Positions 9,651-58,229 of a stretch of 64,000 nucleotides of DNA are shown here, one piece after another (within the stretch, counting starts at the first letter, position 1; every line of letters begins with the position of its first letter). Source of the DNA: Vermamoeba vermiformis. Taxonomy: Eukaryota. The stretch covers positions 124,001 to 188,000 of the forward strand of contig JBEWZL010000263.1 of assembly GCA_045837725.1 (NCBI GenBank), in the 5' to 3' direction. The translations under genes and the position numbers were made by a program. The notes below the pieces were generated by a model that was given only the letters and a program-made list of their open reading frames with translations, was not told the origin of the DNA and made no database searches.

Positions 9651-12002
9651 TTATTCCTCGCGCTTGAATTTCTCCGCAAATGCGACAGTATTGAGCAGTT
9701 GTGGGACAGCATCGAGCACGTGACTGGCGGGTTCCCACTGCCGCAAGAGCAGCACGAACTGATGCGTGTCTAAAAATAGCTGCAGTGACATCTTGTCCTC
9801 GTCGCTCAGCTCGCCAGTGCCACCACTCGTCACGCGCTTCATCTTGGCGAGGAATTCGTGCGTCTTGAGCACTGCTGCCACCTGACTGGCCACCAGGCCC
9901 TGGTAGAGATCACGTGACTCGCTCAGCACGCGATCGCGCCACTCAGCCACGACCACGTGCTGGCCCAACAGTGGCACTATCACGTGATCGAGCCACGTGC
10001 GCAGGGGCTGAAACGCGTCTTGTACATATAAGGAAGGTGCGGTGGGGGCTGCGCGGCCAGTGAGGCGATAGTGCCCTGGTATCTGCTTCAGCGACTGCAG
10101 GCCCTGGTTGATGGCACCTGTCACGTGCTGCACTACTGCGGGGGTCACGTGATCGATCAAGGCGCGTGTGTTGTCACGTGCGGCTGCCAGCATGCCAGCA
10201 ACAATGTCACGTGACAGCGGACCAATCACGTGCTCAATCTCCCGCGCGAGATCGTTCTCGATCTGAGCCTCAAGCCAAATATAGTCATGCAGTATGCTGA
10301 TCTTCGTGCTGACTGCTGTCACATCAGTTTTGGTCAGTGATTGGTCCACGTGACTGAGCACGTGACTGTGAAATTTGTGCAACAGTTGCAAAGAGAATTT
10401 GAGCAGTCGATGCGCTATCGATGCTAAAAATAGCTCTTTGTCCCAGCACTTCACCAGGGCACTCCAAATCTCGCGCGTGATCTCCATCGTACACTGCGGA
10501 GGTGCCTCGCTGACAGGTGTCGCGAGAGTTCTGACATGTGTCACGACAACATCACGTGACAGACACGTGTCGAGTGGCGTGCTCAGTTCGCGCAGACGCA
10601 GCTGACTGTACACTGTCACGTGCCAGCGTGCCACAAATGATCTATAATTAGCGTGCGCGCGGAACTCACTGACCTCGCTGGCACTGGTCATCAAGCGTTC
10701 AAACTGATCCAAAAATAGCATTGCGGCTGTGTAGTTCTGCAACGAATTAGCGACACGTGTCAAACACTGAACTCCACAACTTACCAAGTGAAATGTTGCA
10801 ATGATTCCCGAACTGAAAGCACGTGTCAGATCGAGCTCTAATCTCCGCGCAATCTCGGGCCAAATCACGTGGACCAACATGTTGTGTCCCGTCACGTGCT
10901 GCAGATCAATCAACACGCTGATTCACTGAATTAGTTCAGTACTAAAAATAGCTCAGCGCACTCACCGCAACTCCCGTTCAGTGAATTGAATCAGCCGGTC
11001 GAACAGTGGGCGCAAATCCTCCACGTCAATGCCCAAAAATAGCTTTTCAATGCGTGGTCGCACGAATTGACTTTGCAACAATTCATTGAGCACGTGACTG
11101 CCGTCCTCGAGTTGCCGATAGATTCTGACACCTGTCACCAATCTGTCAAATGGCGTCAAGTGCTCGCTGTGTCCTCCTTCCTTATTTGGCAATGGTGCCT
11201 CAGCCAGCACGTGCAGCATGATGCGTGCCAGCAGTGCCACCAGCTGCTGTTCAATGCGTTGAATGCGTTGCGCGTGTTTCAGCATCAGCGGCAGTTCTCG
11301 CACCGCGCGCACGTGATATTTGACACTTGTCACTTGATTCGCAATGCGTTCTAAAATGAGCACCTCGTCCTCGTCACTGTCCTCAGGGGGGTTGCCAAAT
11401 AAGGCAATCAACCGCTCCACCTGTGTGATGCTGTGTTCAGTGTCTAAAAATAGTCGCAACAATTGCTTTTTCGTGCTGAGTGCCTGTCGCTGCGTGAGTG
11501 TCACGTGCAACTGCTCCACGTGCGTGTCAATCACGTGACTGATCTCCGTCATATCTCCGTGCAGTGCCATCAGCTTGGGTCTGAGCAGTTGAATGAGTGA
11601 CAGCAAGTGATGCTGTCGTCGATGCAGGGTGAGGAAGTGCGCGTACTGGCTCTCAATCACGTGACTCACTGCCAGCGACAGCTTGTCGTGGTAGCTGATT
11701 GCAGGGCATATGTTAGCATCGTTGCTGCACATCACGCAGCTGTCTTACCTAGTGAGCAGTGTGACGAGTGCTGCGAGTGATCGATCAGGGCCAGTCATCA
11801 CGCGCAGTCGATTCACCAGGGCCTGCACACTCTGCTCCACACTGCTGCCTTGCGTGGTGTCGGACAGCGAGGCTTGAATCTCGGCTTCAATCCACCACTG
11901 CTCGGCACTCAGCGCAGTGCCTGTCACGTGACTCACTTTGTCGTCATCCACCAGGGCCATCATGCTCTCGAGCGAGGCACTTGCTGGTGTATTTGTGGAC
12001 AT
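9651..12002 (-). CDS. COG2: Conserved oligomeric Golgi complex subunit 2
   Basis: FSSGIIATFH, RWHVTVYSQLR, IPGHYRLTGRAAPTAPSLYV and SDEDKMSLQLFLD match the COG2 C-terminal domain; at least 3 introns. Confidence 0.85.
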
Positions 12003-20229: not shown

Positions 20230-21894
20230 TTAGTGCTCGTTCAAGTGCAAGCGATGCGTGTGCAGCGAGAGTTCCAAGTCCTGCACGACACTCAGGGCCC
20301 CCAAGAGCTGTTCGCACTGTTTGACAGCTGTCACCTCTTCATGAACGACGCCGCTCAGACTGGACAGCATGGCACTCACTTCGCTCCACTGCGCGCACAG
20401 GTCAGTACGTGGCACGTGATACCAGAGTGCGACACTTACCTTGTCGAGCTGTGCACTGCTGTCACCAATCACGTGCTCGAGATCAGCACCGCACTCGTTC
20501 AGTGAATGCAGCACTGAGTCGTCGAGTGTCACGTGACTGACTGGCATGCGGTGCGTGTTGTACTGCAGCACAGTGGACAGCTCTTCGTAGCGTGTCAAAC
20601 TGTCACTCGCACAGCTGTCCACGTGCTCTACCAGGGCACTGAGCTGCGCGTTGAGCAGTTCTTCGAGCAGATAAATCTCCTGCTTGAGCTCCAAGTCACT
20701 GCGATCACGTGACACTGCTGTCTTCAATTCGCTCAATCGCTCGTGCGCGGTGTGAATCAGTTGCTAAATAAGGCAAGGTGTCAGTCACGTGCCTCGAAAC
20801 AGTGCCAGTCCGTACCTCAGCGCGCAGTTGTCGAGCAGCGAGTGCGTGACTGAGCTTGGCATTCACAAAGCACCACTGCAACAGCGCCGTGTTGAGCAGT
20901 GACGTGTCAGACCTGTCACTGGCTGGCACTGACGACAGCACGGGGGACACGTCACTCTTCTTGCTGTCACTCGGCACTGTGACACGTGTCGTCGAGGTGC
21001 TGGGTGCGGAGGGGCGTGTGACAGCTCTGTTGATGGGTGCCGTGGTGGTGCGTGTCAAAGTGCCACTGACGCGCGTGCTGGTGACAGCTTTGACAGTGCT
21101 GGTGCTGGCACGCAGCTGTGTTCTATTAATAGACGCGGTGTTGTCAATGCGCTGCAGACTGCTCCGTGCAGGTGCCTCGTTGACAGGTGTCGCAGTGACA
21201 CTCGCAGTCGAGTCACGTGGTGCAGTCTTGGAGGGAAATTCCGCCGACTGACTGGTGATGGAGGCACGTGACGCGAGTGAGGTCCGAGCCCTGGCTGTGA
21301 GAGCGGTGAGTGACAGGTGTCAAACAGTGGTGCGTACCAGTGAGGGATTGGCCGTAGTCGAGTCGTCGCTTGGTGGCACTGGGGGGCTGTGCGGCCGTGG
21401 TGGATTTGACTGGCACCGTGCTGGGGGGCAATGTTAGTGCTAACATCGAGGGGTACATATATATATATGCGCGTCCTAGTGTCGAGTGCACTGCTGTGAC
21501 GTACCTCTTCACATCGCGCTTCTTCTCTGCGCTGCGTGTGGGCGTGGGCTGCATGTAGCGCGATTGCACGTACTTGACTGGCATGATGTGAGTGTGGGTA
21601 CGAGAGGGGTGTAATAGCGAGGTATAGAATGCATATAGTACTGCACTGCTATGTACTACTCACCTTTGCGAGCACTGCCCTTGCTAGCGCTCTTAGAAGC
21701 AGAATTGCTCTCCTCAGATTTGGTCTTGTTCGAAGGGGGAGTCATAGGCACAAATCCCGTATTCTCGCGTCCTGTAAATATGGCGAATTTATCTGCATCG
21801 AAATCGTCGATCAGATCTGTTGCTGGAGGGAGATGAAGATCGTTAGTGCTGAAGAAGTGCTTCAATGAGTGGTCTTACTCAGTAACTCCGTCAT
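20230..21894 (-). CDS. Augmin subunit 8 / QWRF-like protein
   Basis: VQSRYMQ motif, S/T/R-rich linker, LLQWCFVNAKL (QWRF-like) and a C-terminal helical region. Upstream exons from ATG 21894 splice in frame. Confidence 0.65.
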
Positions 21895-22033
21895 TGTCGA
21901 TGATATAGATTAAATATACAGTAGTGTATGGCACTTGTGTTGTATTGCTGTTGAGCGAGTGAAATTAAATTAATTTTAAAACCCAATTGCGCGGGAATTT
22001 ATTTTGAACAGCTGATCAGATCGCACACCACAA

Positions 22034-23163
22034 ATGAACTTGCGTGAACTCGATGCGACGATCCAACGACATGTTGCCTATAATCAACAGATATTGTTGT
22101 GCGTCTCGATGACCACTGAAGTCGCTGTCTCACTCGCGGAACAGGGCGATGATCAGGAGGTAGTACTTAATTGTCATAGCGACGAATATTATTATTTTAT
22201 TTTGTGACTAATGCTAGCTCATAACTGCCACTGAATAAGATGAAATAACAAAGTATTAATTATTTTTCAATTTCTGTGAATTTAATTGCAATAATTATTC
22301 TCAATACTGACGCACTGCCAGGCCAATAAGCTCGAAGACACTATACGCGAATATTTGAAGCAAGAACAAGAGATGAAACATCACCTCACGGCACTCGGTG
22401 AGATCAAGAATCAACTCTCGCGCGGGGAGGTAATGCGCTCCTATTGAGCCTCGTACTGGCACTATACTAACACCGCACTGACACCTCACACCGCACAGCT
22501 CAATCTCGACAGTGATCCGCAAGACCCGTCAGTGGATGAACTGACACAACTGGTGCAACAGCGCGTGACAGCACTGAGCAGCACGAGCGAGCAGTGGTGC
22601 AAGTCACACCCCAAGTGGCGCGAGTTCAAGCAGCGCGTGTGGAGTGTGCACCACCCTGATGAAGCACTGCCTGACGATGAGGACAACGAGGTGATTGCCA
22701 TGCACCACAACGCGGCTGCTGAGACCAATTACCTCTGTCCCATCACGCGTGCCGTCTTGGTGCGGCCTGTCAGAAAGTACGTAGTGGATGTGTGTATATA
22801 TCTCTATATATATCCTCTATCTATCTCTATATATCTCTGTATATCTGTATATCTATATATATCCCATCACACCCTCTCCAATACTGACCACGAGTCTCCA
22901 GCGCGCTGTGCGGACACGTGTACTCGCACGAGGCCATGCAGCAGTACTTGAAGGGCAGCAGAGGGACCAAGCGCTGTCCAGTGGTGGGTGAGTGCAGCAG
23001 TCGCGGTGCATATATATACCAGTGTGCTCACAGTGCTGCAGGGTGTGCGCAGAATGTGACCGAGGCGCAGTTGGAGCCAGATCTGGATCTCGAGCGGCGC
23101 ATTGAACGCATGAAGAAGAAGAACAAGCGCCGCGACAACAACGCTAATGTCGTCGATCTGTAG
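22034..23163 (+). CDS. NSMCE2: SUMO E3 ligase NSE2/Mms21 (SP-RING)
   Basis: CPIT...PVR..RCGHVYSHEAM...CPVVGC SP-RING after an N-terminal coiled coil; about 4 introns. Confidence 0.85.
22795..22863. repeat. (TA/TC)n compound microsatellite in NSE2 intron
   Basis: TATATATCTCTATATATATCCTCTATCTATCTC... read directly. Confidence 0.85.
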
Positions 23164-23255
23164 GGCAAGCAGTGGGCTGTAGTGTATATAGTTGTAGGCA
23201 ACGAGGTAATGAACTCTTTTTGTACAGTACAGCAGTGTGCCACCACAAGACATTG

Positions 23256-24011
23256 CTACAATTTAATGGTGTACAGTACACAAAAACTGCTCTCAGCCCA
23301 CTTGGCCGGACTGTCAGAGCCCAACACGCTGGTCCGCTGCTCCGCACTCCTCAATTCTCCGCCTTTCCTTTTTAGGCGCGTGCGAGCGTTGGCGTACCAC
23401 ATGGTGACCTGTTTGACACTCAGGCCAGTCAGCGCACTCACGCGCTCGCGCACACTCGTCGTGGGATAGGGCTCGCTGTCAAAACCTGTCAATGACGTGT
23501 CAGGTGCGCAGAGGTCAGCAGATGACACGTGTCACTCACAGAGCTTGAGATATTCATCGACCAGGGTGCGCTGTGCCACCGTGATCACGTGACAAATCTT
23601 CGCGCACAGCAGTTGTTCCATTTGATGTCCGAATTGCAGCATGGCCTATATAGGAATGTTAGACAAAGTGGTGCAAGTGTCAGTGTCACGTGCCAGCAAT
23701 CACGTGTCCATTACCTGGTCCAGTGGTTTCGCGCCTCCAGGCCCACAGTGAGTGCCGTGTAGTCGACAGAAGACAACATATCTCTGAGCTAGAGTTCATC
23801 AATCAGTGTCAGTCAGTACCCCCCACACACAGTCCCCTACCTTCCTCTCGTATCTGTTCTTCACATCTTCGAACATCGCGTCTTGTTCCTGCACGGCAAT
23901 GCGGATCATCTCGCGCTGCAGGGCGGTGAGGCACTCCAACTCCAAGCCGAGCTCAGCGAGCAGTGCATAGACGATCTTCAGTCCGCGCGTAGGTCTGTTG
24001 GGTATTGTCAT
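23256..24011 (-). CDS. Atypical TALE-like homeodomain protein (HD-A)
   Basis: Spliced ITVAQRTLVDEYLKLCFDSEPYPTTSVRERVSALTGLSVKQVTMWYANARTRLKRK with a helical N-terminal region. One internal splice donor is uncertain. Confidence 0.8.
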
Positions 24012-24134
24012 CGTGTATATAATGCAATAATACGCCAATTCAGGGCACTGTGTTTTTGGTCAGTTCGGAAATTTCACTCAAGTTTCACACATTATTGCGT
24101 GTGATCGGTTCAGACTAGCGACTGAGGCCGCAAC

Positions 24135-24582
24135 ATGAGTGATCCAAGAGCAGTCGCCTTTGTAGCGTCATTTATCAAGGACTTCGAGGCAGAGTGCCAG
24201 CAGACAGTGGCAGAGTTCAACAAGAGCAAAATAGTGCCCTTAGAACCGGACCAGAAGCCTGTGAATAAGATCAATGCCGAGATTAAACAGGTGTTAATTA
24301 AGTAATAATATTCGAGCTAATTCAGCTGACGAGAAACTAATAATCCTAAGGTGGTTGGAGCAACATCTGGACAATCCCTATCCCACTGACGCAGAGAAGC
24401 AAGAGCTGTGTCGTAATACAGGTATAAATATGAATCAACTAACGAACTGGTTCATCAATGCGCGACAACGACTGGTGCCGAAATTGAAAGCGAAACGTAC
24501 TGCAGATCCGAGCCACGTGTTTGATACAGAGCACATTAATAAGAAACGACGTGTGGAGGGTGTTGATCGCATGGAGATGTAG
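24135..24582 (+). CDS. TALE homeodomain protein (HD-B)
   Basis: Intron 24302-24349 gives KQVLIKWLEQHLDNPYPTDAEKQELCRNTGINMNQLTNWFINARQR, a canonical 3-aa loop extension with I50. Confidence 0.93.
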
Positions 24583-24672
24583 TTTTTCAGCGCAGTTCAT
24601 TAGTGTTAGCGACCTTAAACAAGATAATTTCTGTAAATAAACAATTAATCAGATCCGCTTCTGTTCTTAACC

Positions 24673-26974
24673 ATGAAACACAGTGCGCGCAGTATACAAA
24701 CTGAATGCGACAGTATTAGACAGTTGTTGATAGATGTCGGCAATTCACTGGGACTGCAAGGTGATGTGGATCACGGTAAAAGTACGTTTTGAAGCACATC
24801 TGCTTCCATAATTTCGAATAATATGCCATTGACATATTTATAATGCATTAATTATATGGCTCAATTATGTAACCGATTGTTGAATTTTAAAAATCCCCAC
24901 GCGTTCAAACAATTAATTAATCGCTGGCAGTCCATCCACACGGGCCAATCAACATTGATGCGTTACAAATGCAGTTCACTGAACGCGTGACACGTGTCAA
25001 AACAGCACTCACGCGCGCACGTCATTGGTCCGCAGCTGACGCCAGCAAGCGACTGTTGAATTTGAGCAAAGTAAGCGCAGTGTTTGCAAGAATTCAGCTG
25101 ATTTCCTAATTAGGACAAGTCCCTGGAAGATGTCAAACTGAAGTCGCTGAAGAGCAGTGTCAGCACGTGTCAACAACTGGCCGCGAGCTATTTGGAGCGC
25201 GAGACACGTGCCAGCAGCGGTGATCACGTGATCAGCGAGCGACTGAAACAAATAGTTGCAAAGTTAGAGCACGACAAGTTCAGACTATATTTGGAAACAG
25301 CTGACCACGGTGACGACCTCTTAGTGACAGCTGTCAACACCACGCCCAAAATTAGCGTCACCATCACGTGTCCGAGCTATCTGATCGATGTACGGGACTG
25401 CGAATATTTCCTAATTAGGCTAACTCTGTGACAGATAGTGATCCACAACAGCGCAGTGCAGAGTTTGACACTTCAGCTGTCAGTGCAGGACTTTGAACGA
25501 CACGACGAACACTTTGCCGATAAATTGTTGCAAACACTCACGCGCCAGCAGTTCAGTGAATTTGAACGACTGCTGATCAATCTCCATCGGAGATATCAAG
25601 CACTGGATGACACGCGCGATCTATTTTTAGCTCAGGGCCCTGCATCCACAGCAGTTGATGTCAAACGAATTCTTTTCACGTTCGAGGATGACATTGCACG
25701 CATTTGTCAGCACGAGAGGTACGTTACCACCAAATTAGGCAATGACGCGACTGACACCTTGACAGCACGGTGTTCGGTGCAGAACTGAGTTTGACACGTC
25801 ATCACGGCCAGTTGATGTGCGAGGACAGTCGCGGCCGATATCTCCGCTATCACTGCACTGCACTGGCCCTGGTCGAGGCACGTGATCGACTCGCACACCT
25901 GGCACGTGATCATGCTGGCACTTACTGTCTCGCACTCAATGTGGAACTGGACAGCACCTTGTCGAGGCTGATGACTGACACGTGTCAATTGCCCGTTGAC
26001 ACGCAGATTGATTCACTGAACGGCAGTGTCAACGCGAGACTCGGACACAGCGTCGTGTTCAAGAGTGATCACGTGACTCGTGTGCCGAGGACTGCGAATG
26101 ACACGTGTCAAACAGCGACTCTGAGCTATGTGATGACGCTCGACCAGGGCCTCGTGCTCGCCACTGAGAGTCTGCAAGCCATTCACAGTGTCATTACAGG
26201 TCGCGGAGTGACAGGTGTCATCAGCCAGGTCGATCTGAATCACGTGCTCAACGACGACATGACAGCACTGCTCTCGACGGAGAGTGGCAATCTCGGTGTG
26301 TCACTGATTGATCTATTAATAGCGCAAGCACGTGATCAGGCACGTGACACGTTGACAGTACAGAATGACATTCATGAACTGCAGGCTGACATTGTAAGTG
26401 GCACGCTGACACTCAGTGCCGTACTGACCTTACTTTGACAGCACCTCGATCACGTGCTCGATGACCTGTCAACACGTGTCACACACCGCTACGTGATGAG
26501 TCACGTGACACCCTCTGACATCCCTGCGGTGACTATAAATAGAATTCCCTTCACGCACATCTCGCAAGTGCACCCCGTGCTGCAGATTCTGCGCCAACAG
26601 GTCAGTATTTCCTAATATGGCAAGTGTGGTACTGACCAATCGCGTGACAGCTCGTGTTCAGTGAATTGCTCGCCTCGTGTTTCATCAGTCCGCTGCAAAG
26701 GCCAGTGAATGATGCGTTGACACGTGCCACGTGCGAAGTGATCGAGATTGTGACACTGCGGAACAATTATCTCCTGCTCAATCTCGTGCCACGTGGCAGT
26801 CACACAGTTGTTCCGCTCAGCGTGGAGATCAACGTGCAGCTCAATGGCGAGATTGCAGTGTCCAGTGCAGAACCGAGTCTGACACCGATAGTGACACGTG
26901 TCAGTGAGGTGTTGACAGTGACGCGTAATATTCCGCTGTTCGTTCATGAATTGCTTGTCAATCTGTCAAAGTAA
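24673..26974 (+). CDS. MED1: Mediator subunit Med1
   Basis: ITCPSYLIDV, QQFSEFERLLINL and IPFTHISQVHPVLQILRQQLVFSELLASC resemble Med1 N-domain motifs; about 6 introns. Confidence 0.72.
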
Positions 26975-45320: not shown

Positions 45321-47305
45321 ATGCCCCGCTTTATACTTGGTGCTTTGCTATTGCTATTTTTATTCGATACTTGCGTAGCTCGTGCGGTGGTTACAGCGTA
45401 TTATAACCCTCAAGCCCAGCAATGGTCCTTTGAGCTCGTTGAAGATGCATCTGGGGTTGCAACTGCAGTATTTTACGATGAAATGAATATCACTGGTTGG
45501 GATCGCCTTTACGTTCGATCAAATCCCAGCTATTCGAACGATTTGCAAGCCTACGCAGCTGGTGAGTCTAAATCCAAGTGACAGTTGGATTGTCACAAGA
45601 AAATCAAAATAATATAATATTATATTTGCCATTAACGTCAAGTGGCAATAACTTATTTATCATCAGGGTACGTGGAAGGAATTATTTCAGCGTTGAAAAT
45701 TAATCAGTGGTATCAAAACTTCTTTGCGGGAGTATTTGGAGACAAAGCGCCAACCAAGCAATTTACTGCGTTCATGACTGCGCAATATCAATGGACTATG
45801 AATCGCGCAGTACAAGGATGCAGCTCCGATAAACAACAGTAAGGTCCAGATCTATTTGATTTCTGTCTCATTCCTTTATCAATAGCCCTGAACGTGAGTA
45901 CTGGTGCCAAGCACTGACAGTGCTGCAGCAGATTGAAGGTCTCACTGACGGCTATGGCGAGATCTATCCCTCGCAAGTAAGTGACTTGCTAAAGAGTGTC
46001 ACCTGTACTCACCTTCATGCAGCTCTCAGTGCTCGACATGTACACGCTCAATGCAGCAGGAGATCTCGAGAACTTGGTAGGACTGTACAATAAGGAGAAT
46101 TATCGCGGCTCTGCTCTCGCTCGTCGACGTGAATTTTTCAATGAAATTGGACTCGACTGTTCAGCGTTCATTAAGGTGACTGACACTGATCTCTTCTTCG
46201 GCCACACAACTTGGACCGAGTACTCGTCGATGAATCGCATTTACAAGCACTATGAACTCAACTACAGCTATCAATCCACCACTGCTCGTCGTGTTGGATT
46301 CTCTTCACGACCAGGTTTCGTCTCGTCCAAGGATGACTTCTATCAAATGGACAGGTAATGTCGTTGCCAATGGTTTGGTATTATGTCTTACTAACTATAA
46401 TCAGCGGTCTCGTGTCACAAGAGACTACCATCTCTCTCATAAATGAAACCTTGTACCAAGCTGTCACGTACAAATCGGTGCTGTGTTTCATGCGTTCAGT
46501 ACTTGCAAATAGAATGGCGCGCAGTGCTCGCGAATGGACTGAAATCTTTGCAAAGTATAACTCGGGAACGTAAGTGAACAGTTGTATTGTGCAGGTGTAC
46601 CTTTCTAACAATGCCTCTTCAGTTACAACAATCAGTGGATGGTCATTGACTTGAACAAGTATTCGCCAGGTCTGCCAATAGTACGCGACACCTTCTGGAT
46701 CATCGAACAAATCCCCGGCATGACGCGCAGTGCTGACATGAGTGACTTCCTCGCGCAGAACGGCTACTGGCCTTCATTCAACGAGGCCTATTTTGCCGAT
46801 ATCTACGCAGTATCTGGTCTGCCCAATCCGTCGCCAATCAACGGCCAGGGCGGTAGCTACATCAATGACCCGCGCTTCAAAATCTTTACTCGCGATCAGA
46901 GCCAAGTGACGTCCATGGCCGGCATGATGCACATCTTGCAGTACAACGATTGGCAGAACGATCCGTTGCAGAAGGGCAGTCCCGCTGAGGGCATTGCATC
47001 GCGCTATGATCTGATTCAGAACAAAACACTTGCATTCGGTGGCATCGATTCCAAGGCAAGTGTCAACCGTGATCCGTTCTGTCGGTTCTGCAACATCTAA
47101 TCTTACACAGATCACGTCATATAATTTGATGTTACCTGCCATGGGATCGGAAAAGGGTCCGATGTTTGTGGTGGCTTATTCAGGACCAACGCACCAAGGT
47201 CAAGATCCATTCGTGTGGACTTCAAAATTCACCGACAAACACGTGGGGCAACCTGATGTATGGGACTTTGATTGGCGAGTAATCTCTTCGAACAGTGCCA
47301 TGTGA
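45321..47305 (+). CDS. Phospholipase B-like (PLBD) Ntn hydrolase, secreted/lysosomal
   Basis: Signal peptide; AAGYVEG, CSAFIKV, GHTTW, SSKDDFY, NSGTYNNQW, IASRYDL and GGIDSK motifs. Confidence 0.94.
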
Positions 47306-56819: not shown

Positions 56820-58229
56820 ATGTTGGCCGTCAGAAGATTAGCAAACTATGTCACAGGTCTGAGTGCCGAGTCATTCAATGTCAACAAGTGGGTCAACACT
56901 TCACTCGCGTAAGTCTTGCGTGATCTAAGCCACCTAACACCAGATCTAACTGTATTCTTCAGCGGCAATTCAGGGCTCATCTCAAAGTGTCTCGGTGCAC
57001 TCGACGACGCATGGATATCAGTGTACAGCAGATCTAGCCGCAACACTTCCTTTGGTGAAGGTATATTGTTCGGATCCACGAACTGTAGACCTGATTAGTT
57101 CTCGCGATCTGACGAAGTATACCACTAGGTTGGGGCTGGTTCAAAAATGACATTAGCTTCTTCGACACTGCTCAACGGATCACTGTGCGCTGGCAGAGCG
57201 AGTGGCAGAACAAAGGCGCGTACTTCATTCGCACGGGTGTGTTCTGCTCGCCCATCACAGTCGAGGAGGGAATTCACGCTGATTGCACGGAAGGTATGGC
57301 GTATGAATTAACATCTATGGTGGCCTTGATTTATGAAATTTCCGCAGCATTATTCGAAATAATGGTCCCCTCTCTCGAGCGCACAGACTTTCCTATCTGC
57401 GTGCAATTAGCCGCGACGAACGATCAAGGACTGTGGAAGCGACGCAGATTTGTCGCACAACCCCTCATCGAGCACGGCATTGGCTCCGTGATATTAGAGA
57501 ATGCGTATTACGGCGCCAGACGTCCCAAGGCCTACACACTGCCCTTCGGTGCCTTGCCCAAAGTGAGTGACTTGTATCTCATGGGCAAGGCGACTATTGA
57601 AGAGGGTCGCAGTCTGTTGCGCTGGTTGCGCGAGGACTACGGGCACAAAGGACCGCTCGGTGTCACTGGCATCTCCATGGGTGCAGCGATGGCCACAGCT
57701 ATTGGGTGTAGCGCACCATTCGAGTACGTGTGAATAATGCACCTTGAAATAGCAACAATTCTGACCTGTTAACAGAGTGGCCGTGGCGTCATGTCTGCCC
57801 GCTCATTCACCTGTGCCCATCTACACGGAAGGTGTGCTGAGCAAGGCCGTGCACTGGGAGATACTGCGCGGTGAAATGAATTTTGAGAGCGAAGACGACG
57901 CTAAAAACCACATGCAAAGCTTCCTCAATCTGGCTAGCCTCGACGAAATCCTCAAATTTCACAAAACACCTTTCGCTTACGTACAAATCTCAGCGGTGAA
58001 TGACAGGTACATTCCCAACGATTCCGCACAGCTCTTGTACGACGTGGTAGCAGAACGCTGTCGCACTCACGCGCACGAATTGACCTGGATTCGTGGCGGA
58101 CACGTGTCAAGTGTTTTGATTGACCGCAACAAGATCATTGATGCTATTGTGCGCTCATTTGAATTGCTGAAAGAAAGACAACAAGAAAAAAAGAAAAAGA
58201 ACAAACTCAAGCCGCTGCTTGAACTGTAA
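56820..58229 (+). CDS. ABHD18: ABHD18/DUF2048 alpha/beta hydrolase
   Basis: CVQLAATNDQ, LENAYYGARRP, VSDL, GISMG nucleophile elbow and GGHVS; mitochondrial-like N-terminus. Confidence 0.85.

What the first reader, a model, noticed from the sequence alone, without database searches (positions are those of the whole stretch)
23256..24582. Head-to-head pair of dissimilar TALE-type homeobox genes: candidate mating-type/ploidy cassette
Seen: two small genes with start codons about 123 bp apart, each with a short helical N-terminus and a C-terminal homeodomain. HD-B is canonical TALE (WFINAR). HD-A is atypical (WYANAR, loop apparently 4 residues longer than standard). They are not recent duplicates. 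Known: divergent HD1/HD2 pairs define basidiomycete mating loci, and TALE heterodimers drive the haploid-diploid switch in Chlamydomonas (GSP1/GSM1) and brown algae (ORO/SAM). Inference: a heterodimer cassette for cryptic sex in this protist, and a candidate binder of TGACA-NN-TGTCA. Caveat: short divergent promoters are common in this window.
Basis: partly seen in the sequence, partly recalled or inferred. Interest (0 to 1): 0.8.

Follow-up and report, generated by a model that had tools for sequence, protein, structure and literature searches.

The report
Conserved head-to-head homeobox gene pair
Two small homeobox transcription-factor genes sit back to back on one short shared promoter in this microbial eukaryote and in a relative, which makes them a good but unproven candidate for a two-part life-cycle switch.

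Summary
Two intron-bearing genes start 123 bp apart on opposite strands. Each has an N-terminal helix and a C-terminal homeodomain.

- **HD-B (+)** is a clear TALE of MEIS/TGIF type.
- **HD-A (-)** is an orphan homeodomain (PYP, WYANAR). Whether its loop has four extra residues or none depends on the alignment partner, so "both TALE" is unresolved.
- **Both genes are real and constrained.** A metagenome contig from a relative (L001) keeps the order NSE2-like, HD-A, HD-B, MED1-like, with 120 bp between start codons. dN/dS is 0.09 for HD-A and 0.14 for HD-B. A 29-nt block in the promoter is conserved.
- **Expression.** Four RNA data sets cover both neighbouring genes but give only one partial read on the pair. 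Depths are low, so this is weak evidence.
- **Against a fungal-style multiallelic mating locus.** The first 26 residues of HD-A are invariant in 7 of 7 relatives, and the pair is no more diverged than its flanks.
- **Frame problem.** With canonical splice sites, HD-A exon 2 is out of frame in this window. This could be a strain frameshift, an assembly indel or an alternative donor.
- **TGACA-NN-TGTCA** is mostly the extended form of a pervasive CACGTG motif, so it is not specific evidence for these proteins.

Heterodimer formation was not shown. Best reading: a co-regulated two-part homeodomain switch for a specific life-cycle stage.

The parts
23256..24011 (-). HD-A gene, start codon to stop codon: orphan homeodomain protein of about 183-191 aa with an N-terminal long helix
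   Evidence: Gene model. Ortholog in L001 is intact with 4 exons. dN/dS 0.092 against L001.
23841..24011 (-). HD-A exon 1 (57 aa): one long amphipathic helix with leucine-zipper-like heptads
   Evidence: AlphaFold2 gives a helix over residues 9-56, pLDDT 91.2. 6 of 6 database relatives are 83-93% identical and the first 26 residues are invariant. Heptad positions a/d read L,V,L,L,L,L,Q,M. No Pfam family at E <= 1.
23715..23788 (-). HD-A exon 2: 74 nt with the canonical GTAATG donor, which is out of frame. An alternative in-frame donor lies at 23746/23747.
   Evidence: The peptide frame is conserved with L001 over 18 aa at 94% identity. L001's exon 2 is 66 nt and in frame.
23540..23645 (-). HD-A exon 3: linker, degenerate N-terminal arm and helix 1 of the homeodomain
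   Evidence: No PDB match for this exon alone at E <= 10.
23256..23485 (-). HD-A exon 4: PYP loop end, helices 2-3 (WYANAR) and a conserved C-terminal tail, ending in TAG
   Evidence: Pfam Homeodomain 5.8e-9 and Homeobox_KN 9.4e-9. Best PDB hits are DUX4 at 1.4e-8, engrailed, then PBX/Exd. Relatives are 81-84% identical including the tail.
24012..24134 (.). Shared 123-bp divergent promoter / 5' region
   Evidence: The corresponding region in L001 is 120 bp.
24062..24090 (.). Conserved 29-nt block in the middle of the shared promoter (contains GTTCGGAAATTTC)
   Evidence: 26 of 29 positions are identical to L001, in an intergenic region that is otherwise poorly alignable, at dS about 1. The block is unique in the window even allowing 3 mismatches.
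24135..24582 (+). HD-B gene, start codon to stop codon: 132-aa TALE homeodomain protein
   Evidence: The GTAATA donor at 24302 is supported by the L001 ortholog. dN/dS 0.139.
24135..24301 (+). HD-B exon 1: amphipathic helix (residues 4-30), a disordered linker and the start of homeodomain helix 1
   Evidence: AlphaFold2. Relatives are 78%, 76% and 46% identical. pN 0.33 here against 0.064 for the HD-A N-terminus. No Pfam family at E <= 1.
24351..24582 (+). HD-B exon 2: TALE homeodomain from W19 on (WFINAR) and a conserved basic/acidic tail, ending in TAG
   Evidence: Homeobox_KN 2.6e-20. Best PDB hits are MEIS1/2 at 4.6e-12, then TGIF and PKNOX1. In-box TALE profile scores 76-80 bits against 41-43 for the typical profile.
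22601..23190 (+). 3' part of the NSE2/MMS21-like gene, convergent with HD-A. Its transcripts end about 66 nt from the HD-A stop codon.
   Evidence: zf-Nse 3.5e-5, 24 bits, below the cut-off of 27 because only part of the domain is in the piece searched. Spliced transcript contigs in X5 and X6.
24664..26612 (+). MED1-like gene downstream of HD-B. Its transcript starts about 82 nt after the HD-B stop codon.
   Evidence: Spliced contigs start at 24664/24665. Pfam Med1 1.9e-5, 24.4 bits against a cut-off of 25, on 26439-26612.

Best explanation
This is a conserved, divergently transcribed pair of small homeodomain transcription-factor genes. HD-B is a MEIS/TGIF-like TALE protein. HD-A is an orphan homeodomain protein with a long, invariant N-terminal helix. 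They share a 120-123 bp promoter that holds one conserved 29-nt element. I think the two are switched on together at a particular, non-vegetative life-cycle stage (sexual or zygotic, or dormancy or stress) and then act together, most likely as a heterodimer. In that reading HD-B contributes a TGAC-type half-site. Shown here: the gene models, the homeodomain identities, purifying selection, conserved linkage, the promoter footprint and the helices. Inferred: co-expression, heterodimer formation, the stage and the DNA target.
For: - **Two homeoboxes 123 bp apart, head to head**, and the only two in the window.
- **Conserved arrangement.** Relative L001 is collinear with window 26465..21662 and has both genes intact, 120 bp apart.
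- **Purifying selection.** dN/dS is 0.092 for HD-A and 0.139 for HD-B at dS of about 1 or more.
- **Promoter footprint.** 26 of 29 nt are conserved mid-promoter, and the block is unique in the window.
- **HD-A exon 1.** It is modelled as a single 48-residue helix with a zipper-like a/d pattern. Its first 26 residues are invariant in 7 of 7 sequences. A lone long amphipathic helix normally needs a partner helix (inference).
- **HD-B N-terminus** is also an amphipathic helix.
- **Conserved C-terminal tails** in both proteins.
- **RNA.** Of 16 bins over 23209-24600, all are empty in X21, X5 and X6, and 15 of 16 are empty in X23. The same four runs cover NSE2-like and MED1-like, with spliced contigs in X5 and X6.
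[quoted passage not shown] Head-to-head linkage of genes for heterodimer partners with co-expression is described for integrin alpha/beta in unicellular holozoans (PMC5560861, passage).
Against: - No direct evidence of binding between the two proteins.
- RNA absence is weak evidence. Neighbour depth is only about 1-11 reads (X21, X23) or 6-20 word depth (X5, X6). X21 and X23 are only 90-95% like the window, so diverged reads may have been lost. Transcription factors are often lowly expressed.
- With canonical splice sites, HD-A exon 2 is 74 nt and shifts the frame before the homeodomain in this window. The HD-A copy here may be broken.
- Neither N-terminal exon matches a known dimerisation domain (no Pfam hit at E <= 1).
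- Short divergent promoters may simply reflect a compact genome.
- The stage is unknown and the organism is not identified.
Confidence: 0.45

Rival explanations
1. This is a mating-type locus of the basidiomycete b-locus kind. Allelic HD pairs would have N-termini that allow dimerisation only between products of different alleles, so the locus would define mating types.
For: A divergently transcribed homeodomain pair with N-terminal helices. The HD-B N-terminus evolves faster than its homeodomain (pN 0.33 against 0.147). The pair is not seen in culture RNA. RNA runs carrying the same species label are only 90-95% like the window, so diverged strains exist.
Against: - The first 26 residues of HD-A exon 1 are invariant and the whole exon is 83-93% identical in 6 of 6 relatives. 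That is the opposite of a hypervariable specificity domain.
- HD-B exon 1 is 76-78% identical in the closest relatives, against 84% for its exon 2, so it is only mildly faster.
- dN/dS is well below 1.
- The pair is no more diverged than its flanks. HD-A is 87% identical at the protein level, while NSE2-like pieces are 77-81% and MED1-like pieces 74-94%.
- The proteins are far smaller than basidiomycete HD1/HD2, which are about 400-700 aa (recalled).
- Within-species alleles were not available.
Confidence: 0.1
2. These are two unrelated-in-function homeodomain regulators that are neighbours only because the genome is compact. They share intergenic DNA but neither interact nor work in one pathway.
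For: The window is gene-dense. Transcripts of the neighbouring genes end or start 66-82 nt from the pair. There is no known dimerisation domain. The two genes differ in composition: GC3 is 0.69-0.71 for HD-A and 0.53-0.56 for HD-B in both species.
Against: These are the only two homeoboxes in 64 kb, and they are adjacent. The arrangement and spacing are kept at synonymous saturation. There is one central conserved promoter block. Both proteins have an N-terminal amphipathic helix and a conserved tail.
Confidence: 0.25
3. In this strain the pair is decaying. HD-A is a recent pseudogene through a frameshift at the end of exon 2, as can happen to sex- or stage-specific genes in long-kept clonal cultures. 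This does not exclude the other readings for the ancestral function.
For: Exon 2 is 74 nt with the only canonical donor, and translation then stops before the homeodomain. L001's exon 2 is 66 nt and in frame. The codons just upstream differ from L001 only at third positions, so that stretch is coding. There is no other AG in intron 2 to rescue the frame (read).
Against: Exons 3 and 4 are open and show no excess of lineage-specific changes: 4 in the window, 6 in L001 and 4 in P0003, over 75 aa. An in-frame alternative donor (GTGGGC after 23747) exists and is also present in L001. An assembly indel cannot be excluded because the read-laying run was already used.
Confidence: 0.12

Closest known systems
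Basidiomycete HD1/HD2 mating-type genes (bW/bE of Ustilago, A locus of Coprinopsis)
   Same: Two dissimilar homeodomain genes transcribed divergently from a short shared promoter. N-terminal helical regions lie ahead of a C-terminal homeodomain. One partner is a TALE. (Literature: PMC8476127 passages; the gene arrangement is recalled.)
   Different: The proteins here are 132 and about 183-191 aa, not several hundred (recalled). The HD-A N-terminus is invariant across relatives rather than hypervariable. No alleles are known. Gene content of the window (Phospholip_B, ABHD18) hints at a non-fungal host, but that rests on recalled family distributions. The flanks are NSE2-like and MED1-like.
Chlamydomonas GSP1/GSM1 and plant BELL/KNOX
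   Same: A TALE homeodomain partner system that is off in vegetative cells and acts as a heterodimer at the haploid-to-diploid transition (PMC6219170 abstract and sections 12-13; PMC13353863 passages). HD-B is a bona fide TALE.
   Different: No MEINOX/KNOX, ELK, PBC-like or POX domain was found. The N-termini are single short helices. The two genes are physically linked and share a promoter, instead of being expressed in opposite gametes. HD-A is not clearly a TALE.
Ectocarpus OUROBOROS/SAMSARA
   Same: Two divergent TALE-type homeodomain proteins without classical MEINOX/PBC domains that control a life-cycle switch. There the interaction is mediated by the homeodomains (PMC6368402 passage), which would also be possible here.
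   Different: I saw no statement that ORO and SAM are adjacent (0 occurrences of 'linked' in the find). Expression and phenotype are unknown here.
Animal MEIS/PKNOX/TGIF and PBX homeodomains
   Same: HD-B's best solved-structure matches are MEIS1/2, TGIF and PKNOX1. The end of HD-A helix 1 and its exon 4 resemble PBX/Exd weakly (the helix-1 likeness is my own reading from recalled PBX sequence).
   Different: No Meis_PKNOX_N or PBC domain. HD-A's best PDB matches are DUX4 and engrailed, which are typical homeodomains.
Yeast a1/alpha2 and Dictyostelium MatA/MatB
   Same: Small homeodomain or homeodomain-like proteins whose flexible tails decide partner choice (PMC5580921 section 9; a1/alpha2 recalled). 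Both proteins here have strongly conserved C-terminal tails.
   Different: Those genes lie in alternative idiomorphs, one per mating type. Here both are on one haplotype and are orthologously conserved.

Membership tests
TALE superclass (HD-B) | Three extra residues between helix 1 and helix 2 (W/L pair 8 residues before P24), plus the WFxNxR helix 3 | tested here: met
   Homeobox_KN over all 40 profile positions, E 2.6e-20. TALE profile scores 76-80 bits against 41-43 for the typical profile. hhalign scores 120 against 63.
TALE superclass (HD-A) | Three-residue loop extension | tested here: inconclusive
   - Against the TALE profile, one extra residue is needed and the local alignment starts only at PYP.
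- Against the typical profile, the alignment is gap-free from the end of helix 1, but a 4-residue insertion is needed earlier in global mode.
- Scores: HMM 40.6 against 40.8 bits; hhalign 69 (TALE) against 60 (typical).
- The tree on helices 2-3 puts the HD-A clade outside the main TALE group.
- The AU test rejects neither grouping: p 0.65 with typical homeodomains, p 0.26 with TALE.
- A fold of the spliced domain could not be made.
KNOX/MEIS class | N-terminal MEINOX (KNOX1/KNOX2 or Meis_PKNOX_N) domain | tested here: not met
   No Pfam family at E <= 1 on HD-B exon 1 or on HD-A exons 1 and 3. HD-B has only about 40 residues ahead of the homeodomain.
PBC / BELL classes | PBC-A/B domain, or POX (SKY+BELL) domain, N-terminal of the homeodomain | tested here: not met
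   No Pfam hit. None of the 50 best non-orthologous relatives of HD-A that I scanned carries such a domain; they are arrays of Homeodomain/Homeobox_KN. Distant PBC-like homology of the kind described in PMC6219170 was not tested with profiles.
Ancient TALE dyads (Joo et al. 2018) | Shared intron positions 44/45 or 48(2/3) within the homeodomain, one in each partner | tested here: not met
   In both genes helices 2 and 3 lie in one exon. The introns fall before W19 in HD-B and in the codon at the exon 3/4 junction just before the PYP loop in HD-A. The criterion comes from PMC6219170 section 13.
Basidiomycete-type HD mating locus | Divergently transcribed pair of dissimilar homeodomain genes | tested here: met
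Basidiomycete-type HD mating locus | Multiple alleles with hypervariable N-terminal specificity regions | tested here: not met
   This was tested only by proxy across relatives. HD-A exon 1 is 83-93% identical and its first 26 residues are invariant in 7 of 7. HD-B exon 1 is 76-78% identical in the nearest relatives. Within-species alleles are not testable with these tools.
Life-cycle homeodomain heterodimers (any lineage) | Physical heterodimerisation of the two proteins | not testable with these tools
See Tried and rejected.
Life-cycle homeodomain heterodimers (any lineage) | Gamete-, zygote- or stage-restricted expression | tested here: inconclusive
   Essentially no RNA over the pair in 4 of 4 runs that cover both neighbours; one partial read in X23. 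Depth is low and no stage series was available.

The most novel reading that the evidence does not exclude
The pair is the haploid-diploid (sexual) switch of a protist lineage with no described sex. Both heterodimer partners would be hard-wired to one bidirectional promoter. That would be a physically linked homeodomain dyad outside the fungi, pairing a TALE with an orphan, possibly non-TALE, homeodomain. It would bear on whether the ancestral eukaryotic switch was TALE plus non-TALE or TALE plus TALE.
Probability: 0.2. Interest if true: 0.8.

Novelty: new variant of a known kind. Interest (0 to 1): 0.52.

Why it matters
Paired homeodomain proteins that heterodimerise after gamete fusion are thought to be an ancestral eukaryotic device for starting the diploid programme. 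It is an open question whether the original pair was TALE plus TALE or TALE plus non-TALE, and sampling of more unicellular lineages has been called for (PMC8476127, passages).

This locus is a compact candidate outside the model groups that can be tested directly. It has two tiny genes, one promoter, one conserved promoter element and clear orthologs in environmental relatives. If the pair is induced on mixing strains or on starvation, it would be a handle on cryptic sex or dormancy in this organism.

In four literature searches I found no description of a head-to-head TALE-containing pair outside fungi. Those searches cover only the held library and only a few term sets.

Tried and rejected
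- **Complex prediction on the two N-terminal exons** (alignments A4 and A5). Verdict: no answer, score 0.02 against a mark of 0.34. The alignments were not used and the partner's fold was uncertain. This is neither support nor evidence against binding.
- **Whole genome.** None is held, so I could not count homeoboxes genome-wide or look for meiosis genes.
- **Earlier findings of this scan.** Nothing by place, by sequence or by words.
- **Protein Atlas.** HD-A exon 1 scored at best 0.85. HD-B exon 1 scored at best 0.89, to bacterial DUF4062 clusters. Both are below the level that means anything.
- **PDB search with HD-A exon 3 alone.** 0 matches at E <= 10.
- **Rfam and tRNA scans of the window.** 0 matches each.
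- **The listing of cluster members** gave no names beyond 'hypothetical protein'.
- **Paper search for TGACACGTGTCA** returned only two unrelated virology papers.
- **Classifying HD-A by a tree on helices 2-3.** With only 35 columns, 48 of 81 inner branches were unresolved. AU tests reject neither placement.
- **Rejected gene models.** For HD-B, the GTTAAT donor at 24293 is not supported by L001. For HD-A, the acceptor at 23783 puts exon 2 in a frame that is not conserved.
- **Not done.** Folding of the full homeodomain of HD-A or of the full-length proteins, because the spliced sequences cannot be handed to the folding tools.
They say nothing about habitat.
Full report
**What is there**

The window is eukaryotic: short GT..AG introns, and COG2, BCCIP, Nup54, RPL21e and other eukaryotic families.

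At 23256-24582 two genes face away from each other. HD-B (+) starts at 24135. It has one 49-nt intron (24302-24350, GTAATA..AAG) and stops at 24582, giving 132 aa. HD-A (-) starts at 24011 and stops at 23256. Its exons are 24011-23841, 23788-23715, 23645-23540 and 23485-23256. The start codons are separated by exactly 123 bp.

Pfam finds Homeobox_KN in HD-B exon 2 (E 2.6e-20). In HD-A exon 4 it finds Homeodomain (5.8e-9) and Homeobox_KN (9.4e-9). The N-terminal exons match nothing at E <= 1. A six-frame scan with two homeodomain profiles finds no third homeobox in the 64 kb.

**Flanks**

The upstream gene carries part of a zf-Nse (NSE2/MMS21) zinc finger: 3.5e-5, 24 bits, below the cut-off because only part of the domain lies in the piece searched. 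The downstream gene has a weak Med1 match at 26439-26612: 1.9e-5, 24.4 bits against a cut-off of 25. Transcript contigs place the NSE2-like 3' end near 23190 and the MED1-like 5' end at 24664/24665. The whole pair sits in about 1.47 kb between its neighbours.

**The genes are real and constrained**

Searches with single exons found relatives.
- HD-B exon 2: 2 of 2 candidates, at 84% and 53% identity.
- HD-B exon 1: 2 of 2, at 78% and 76%.
- HD-A exon 1: 6 of 6, at 83-93%.
- HD-A exon 4: 211 proteins at E <= 0.001. Of the 150 listed, four (P0003, P0010, P0011, P0022) are family members at 59-84% identity.

One metagenome contig, L001 (4776 nt), was recovered. It is collinear with window 26465..21662 at 70-80% nucleotide identity. 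It holds both genes intact, head to head with 120 bp between start codons, and with the same intron positions.

Between the window and L001:
- HD-A: dN/dS is 0.092 at dS 1.0.
- HD-B: dN/dS is 0.139.
- The HD-B N-terminus changes fastest, with pN 0.33. The HD-A N-terminus has pN 0.064.
- HD-A is 87% identical at the protein level. HD-B is well conserved in the homeodomain and tail but only 46% identical in exon 1.

Both C-terminal tails are conserved in three taxa.

In the otherwise poorly alignable promoter, one central block (window 24062-24090) keeps 26 of 29 nt. It occurs once in the window, even with 3 mismatches allowed.

**Class of the two homeodomains**

HD-B is an ordinary TALE. It covers the full Homeobox_KN profile. 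Its best solved relatives are MEIS1/2, TGIF and PKNOX1. It scores 76-80 bits on a TALE profile against 41-43 on a typical profile, both built in the script box from the hits.

HD-A is not resolved.
- It has PYP and WYANAR. The alanine at position 52 is TALE-like (my reading).
- Its best solved matches are DUX4 and engrailed, which are typical homeodomains. PBX/Exd follow.
- The Pfam typical model and my typical profile align it without a gap from the end of helix 1. The TALE profile aligns it only from PYP onward, and both score about 41 bits.
- Profile-profile alignment favours TALE on score: 69 against 60 local, 66.5 against 56.6 global. It needs one residue more than TALE, whereas the typical alignment needs four extra residues earlier in helix 1.
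- BLASTP against HD-B also places one extra residue.
- Loop lengths vary among the 161 distinct homeodomains in the hits. Counting the distance of the W-hydrophobic pair from P24: 88 at the TALE distance, 1 one residue longer, 25 two longer, 2 three longer, 1 shorter, and 44 without such a pair.
- A tree on helices 2-3 alone (35 columns, poorly resolved) puts the HD-A clade (SH-aLRT 93) outside the main TALE group that holds HD-B. AU tests reject neither joining it to typical homeodomains (p 0.65) nor to TALEs (p 0.26).
- Of the 50 best non-orthologous hits that I scanned, out of the 150 listed, none has a PBC, MEINOX, KNOX, ELK or POX domain. They are arrays of several homeodomains.

Neither gene has the old intron positions 44/45 or 48(2/3) discussed by Joo et al. 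(PMC6219170, section 13; gene models).

**N-termini**

AlphaFold2 on HD-A exon 1 (7-row alignment) gives one helix over residues 9-56 with mean pLDDT 91. Its best heptad register has L,V,L,L,L,L,Q,M at a/d over the first four heptads. On HD-B exon 1 (4 rows) AlphaFold2 gives a helix over residues 4-30 and then a low-confidence linker. The first 26 residues of HD-A are identical in all 7 sequences.

**A frame problem in HD-A**

With the only canonical donor (GTAATG after 23715), exon 2 is 74 nt and the reading frame is lost before the homeodomain. The conserved peptide frame of exon 2 is clear: 18 aa at 94% identity to L001. The codons just before the divergent end differ from L001 only at third positions. 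L001's exon 2 is 66 nt and in frame.

The window therefore has one of three things:
- a recent frameshift;
- an assembly indel within 23715-23734;
- use of the in-frame donor GTGGGC after 23747, which L001 also has as GTGGGA.

Exon 4 shows no excess of window-specific changes: 4, against 6 in L001 and 4 in P0003.

**Expression**

Of 24 runs listed I laid four on 22600-25200 at 90% likeness or more.
- X21 and X23 are RNA-seq runs with the same species label as the best DNA holder. They gave 20 and 34 reads, almost all only 90-95% like the window, so they come from a different strain or species.
- X5 and X6 gave spliced, transcript-like contigs 95-99% like the window. They cover NSE2-like (X5 and X6) and MED1-like (X5 and X6).
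- Over the 16 bins from 23209 to 24600 the depth is zero in all runs, except 0.74 in one X23 bin (23818-23904, about one partial read in HD-A exon 1).

This fits genes that are off in ordinary cultures. Neighbour depths are low, so it is weak evidence.

**The palindrome**

TGACANNTGTCA occurs 32 times against 0.19 expected. But 18 of the 32 are TGACACGTGTCA, and every such site contains CANNTG by construction. CACGTG itself is the most over-represented hexamer: 159 against 24 expected, and 11-fold by base composition, with flanks that extend it to this palindrome. It occurs in exons and introns of GC-rich stretches and is also enriched in L001 (14 against 1.0).

bHLH-type factors are the textbook binders of CACGTG (recalled). 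MEIS/TGIF-type TALEs do bind TGACA and palindromic TGACAGCTGTCA (recalled from the HT-SELEX literature, not seen here). HD-B therefore remains a possible binder, but the enrichment is not evidence for it. The shared promoter has no CACGTG or TGACA/TGTCA. HD-A introns 2 and 3 have them in both species.

**Reading**

A conserved, co-located pair with one central promoter footprint, two amphipathic N-terminal helices and conserved tails is best explained as a co-regulated two-part regulator. The published precedents are homeodomain heterodimers that start the diploid programme (PMC8476127, PMC6219170, PMC6368402, PMC13353863 and PMC5580921; passages or the sections named above).

A shared promoter predicts that both proteins are made in the same cell. 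The control point would then be the stage at which the promoter fires, not which gamete carries which partner. That differs from Chlamydomonas and resembles basidiomycetes only in layout.

The invariant HD-A N-terminus and the ordinary divergence of the locus argue against a multiallelic recognition locus. Binding, stage and targets are inferred, not shown.

**Limits**

- The organism is not identified and no genome is held.
- Spliced proteins could not be folded or searched whole.
- Only one relative contig gave DNA.
- Supplements of the cited papers were not opened.

Noticed in passing
whole window; examples at 9717-10898, 25164-26900: CACGTG is the most over-represented hexamer: 159 against about 24 expected, and 11-fold by base composition. 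The preferred flanks are [GA]T-CACGTG-A[CT] or GA-CACGTG-TC. It lies in coding exons as well as introns; the COG2 ORF alone holds about 20. The excess grows with local GC content: 104 observed against 6.5 expected in 1-kb windows of at least 50% GC, and 12 against 3.2 below 45% GC. The relative L001 shows the same excess, 14 against 1.0.
   Followed up: partly
window 23486-23539 and 23646-23714; L001 2716-2758 and 2865-2917: HD-A introns 2 and 3 each carry CACGTG together with TGACA/TGTCA in both species, although the introns themselves do not align. The HD-B intron and the shared promoter carry none. This may be intronic regulatory sites, or just the genome-wide motif.
   Followed up: partly
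window 1-64000: The window is a mosaic of GC-rich (about 0.52-0.56) and AT-rich (about 0.35-0.44) kilobase blocks. The boundary near 24000 separates HD-A (GC3 0.69) from HD-B (GC3 0.53), and the same difference exists in L001 (0.71 against 0.56).
   Followed up: partly
proteins P0003, P0010, P0011: Three database ORFs from close relatives of HD-A are the same through the homeodomain up to GGELRG and then differ completely. The tails of P0010 and P0011 look like read-through of an extra intron after that point (inference from the peptides only). P0011 also seems to change frame inside exon 3.
   Followed up: no
proteins P0004-P0060: The nearest non-orthologous relatives of HD-A are proteins with 3-8 tandem homeodomains, mostly TALE-type. 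A sizeable class has a loop two residues longer than TALE (W..SPEH..PYP; 25 of 161 distinct domains).
   Followed up: partly
window 22600-25200, runs: RNA runs labelled with the same species as the best DNA holder are only 90-95% like the window. Spliced transcripts 95-99% like it turn up in runs labelled with other organisms (X5, X6). The organism or close kin therefore seems to travel in other organisms' samples, and the species label covers diverged strains.
   Followed up: no
window 22786-22864: A TA/TC-rich microsatellite inside an NSE2-like intron. Reads were cut there by the repeat filter.
   Followed up: no
window 24636-24641: AATAAA lies 54 nt after the HD-B stop codon and about 25 nt before the MED1-like transcript start. 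This leaves a very tight 3'/5' junction between the two genes.
   Followed up: no
window 46609-47097, 57113-58226: Phospholip_B (1.8e-47) and ABHD18 (6.4e-37) genes. As far as I recall, these families are common in animals and amoebae and rare or absent in fungi. That is a hint, not a test, that the host is not a fungus.
   Followed up: no
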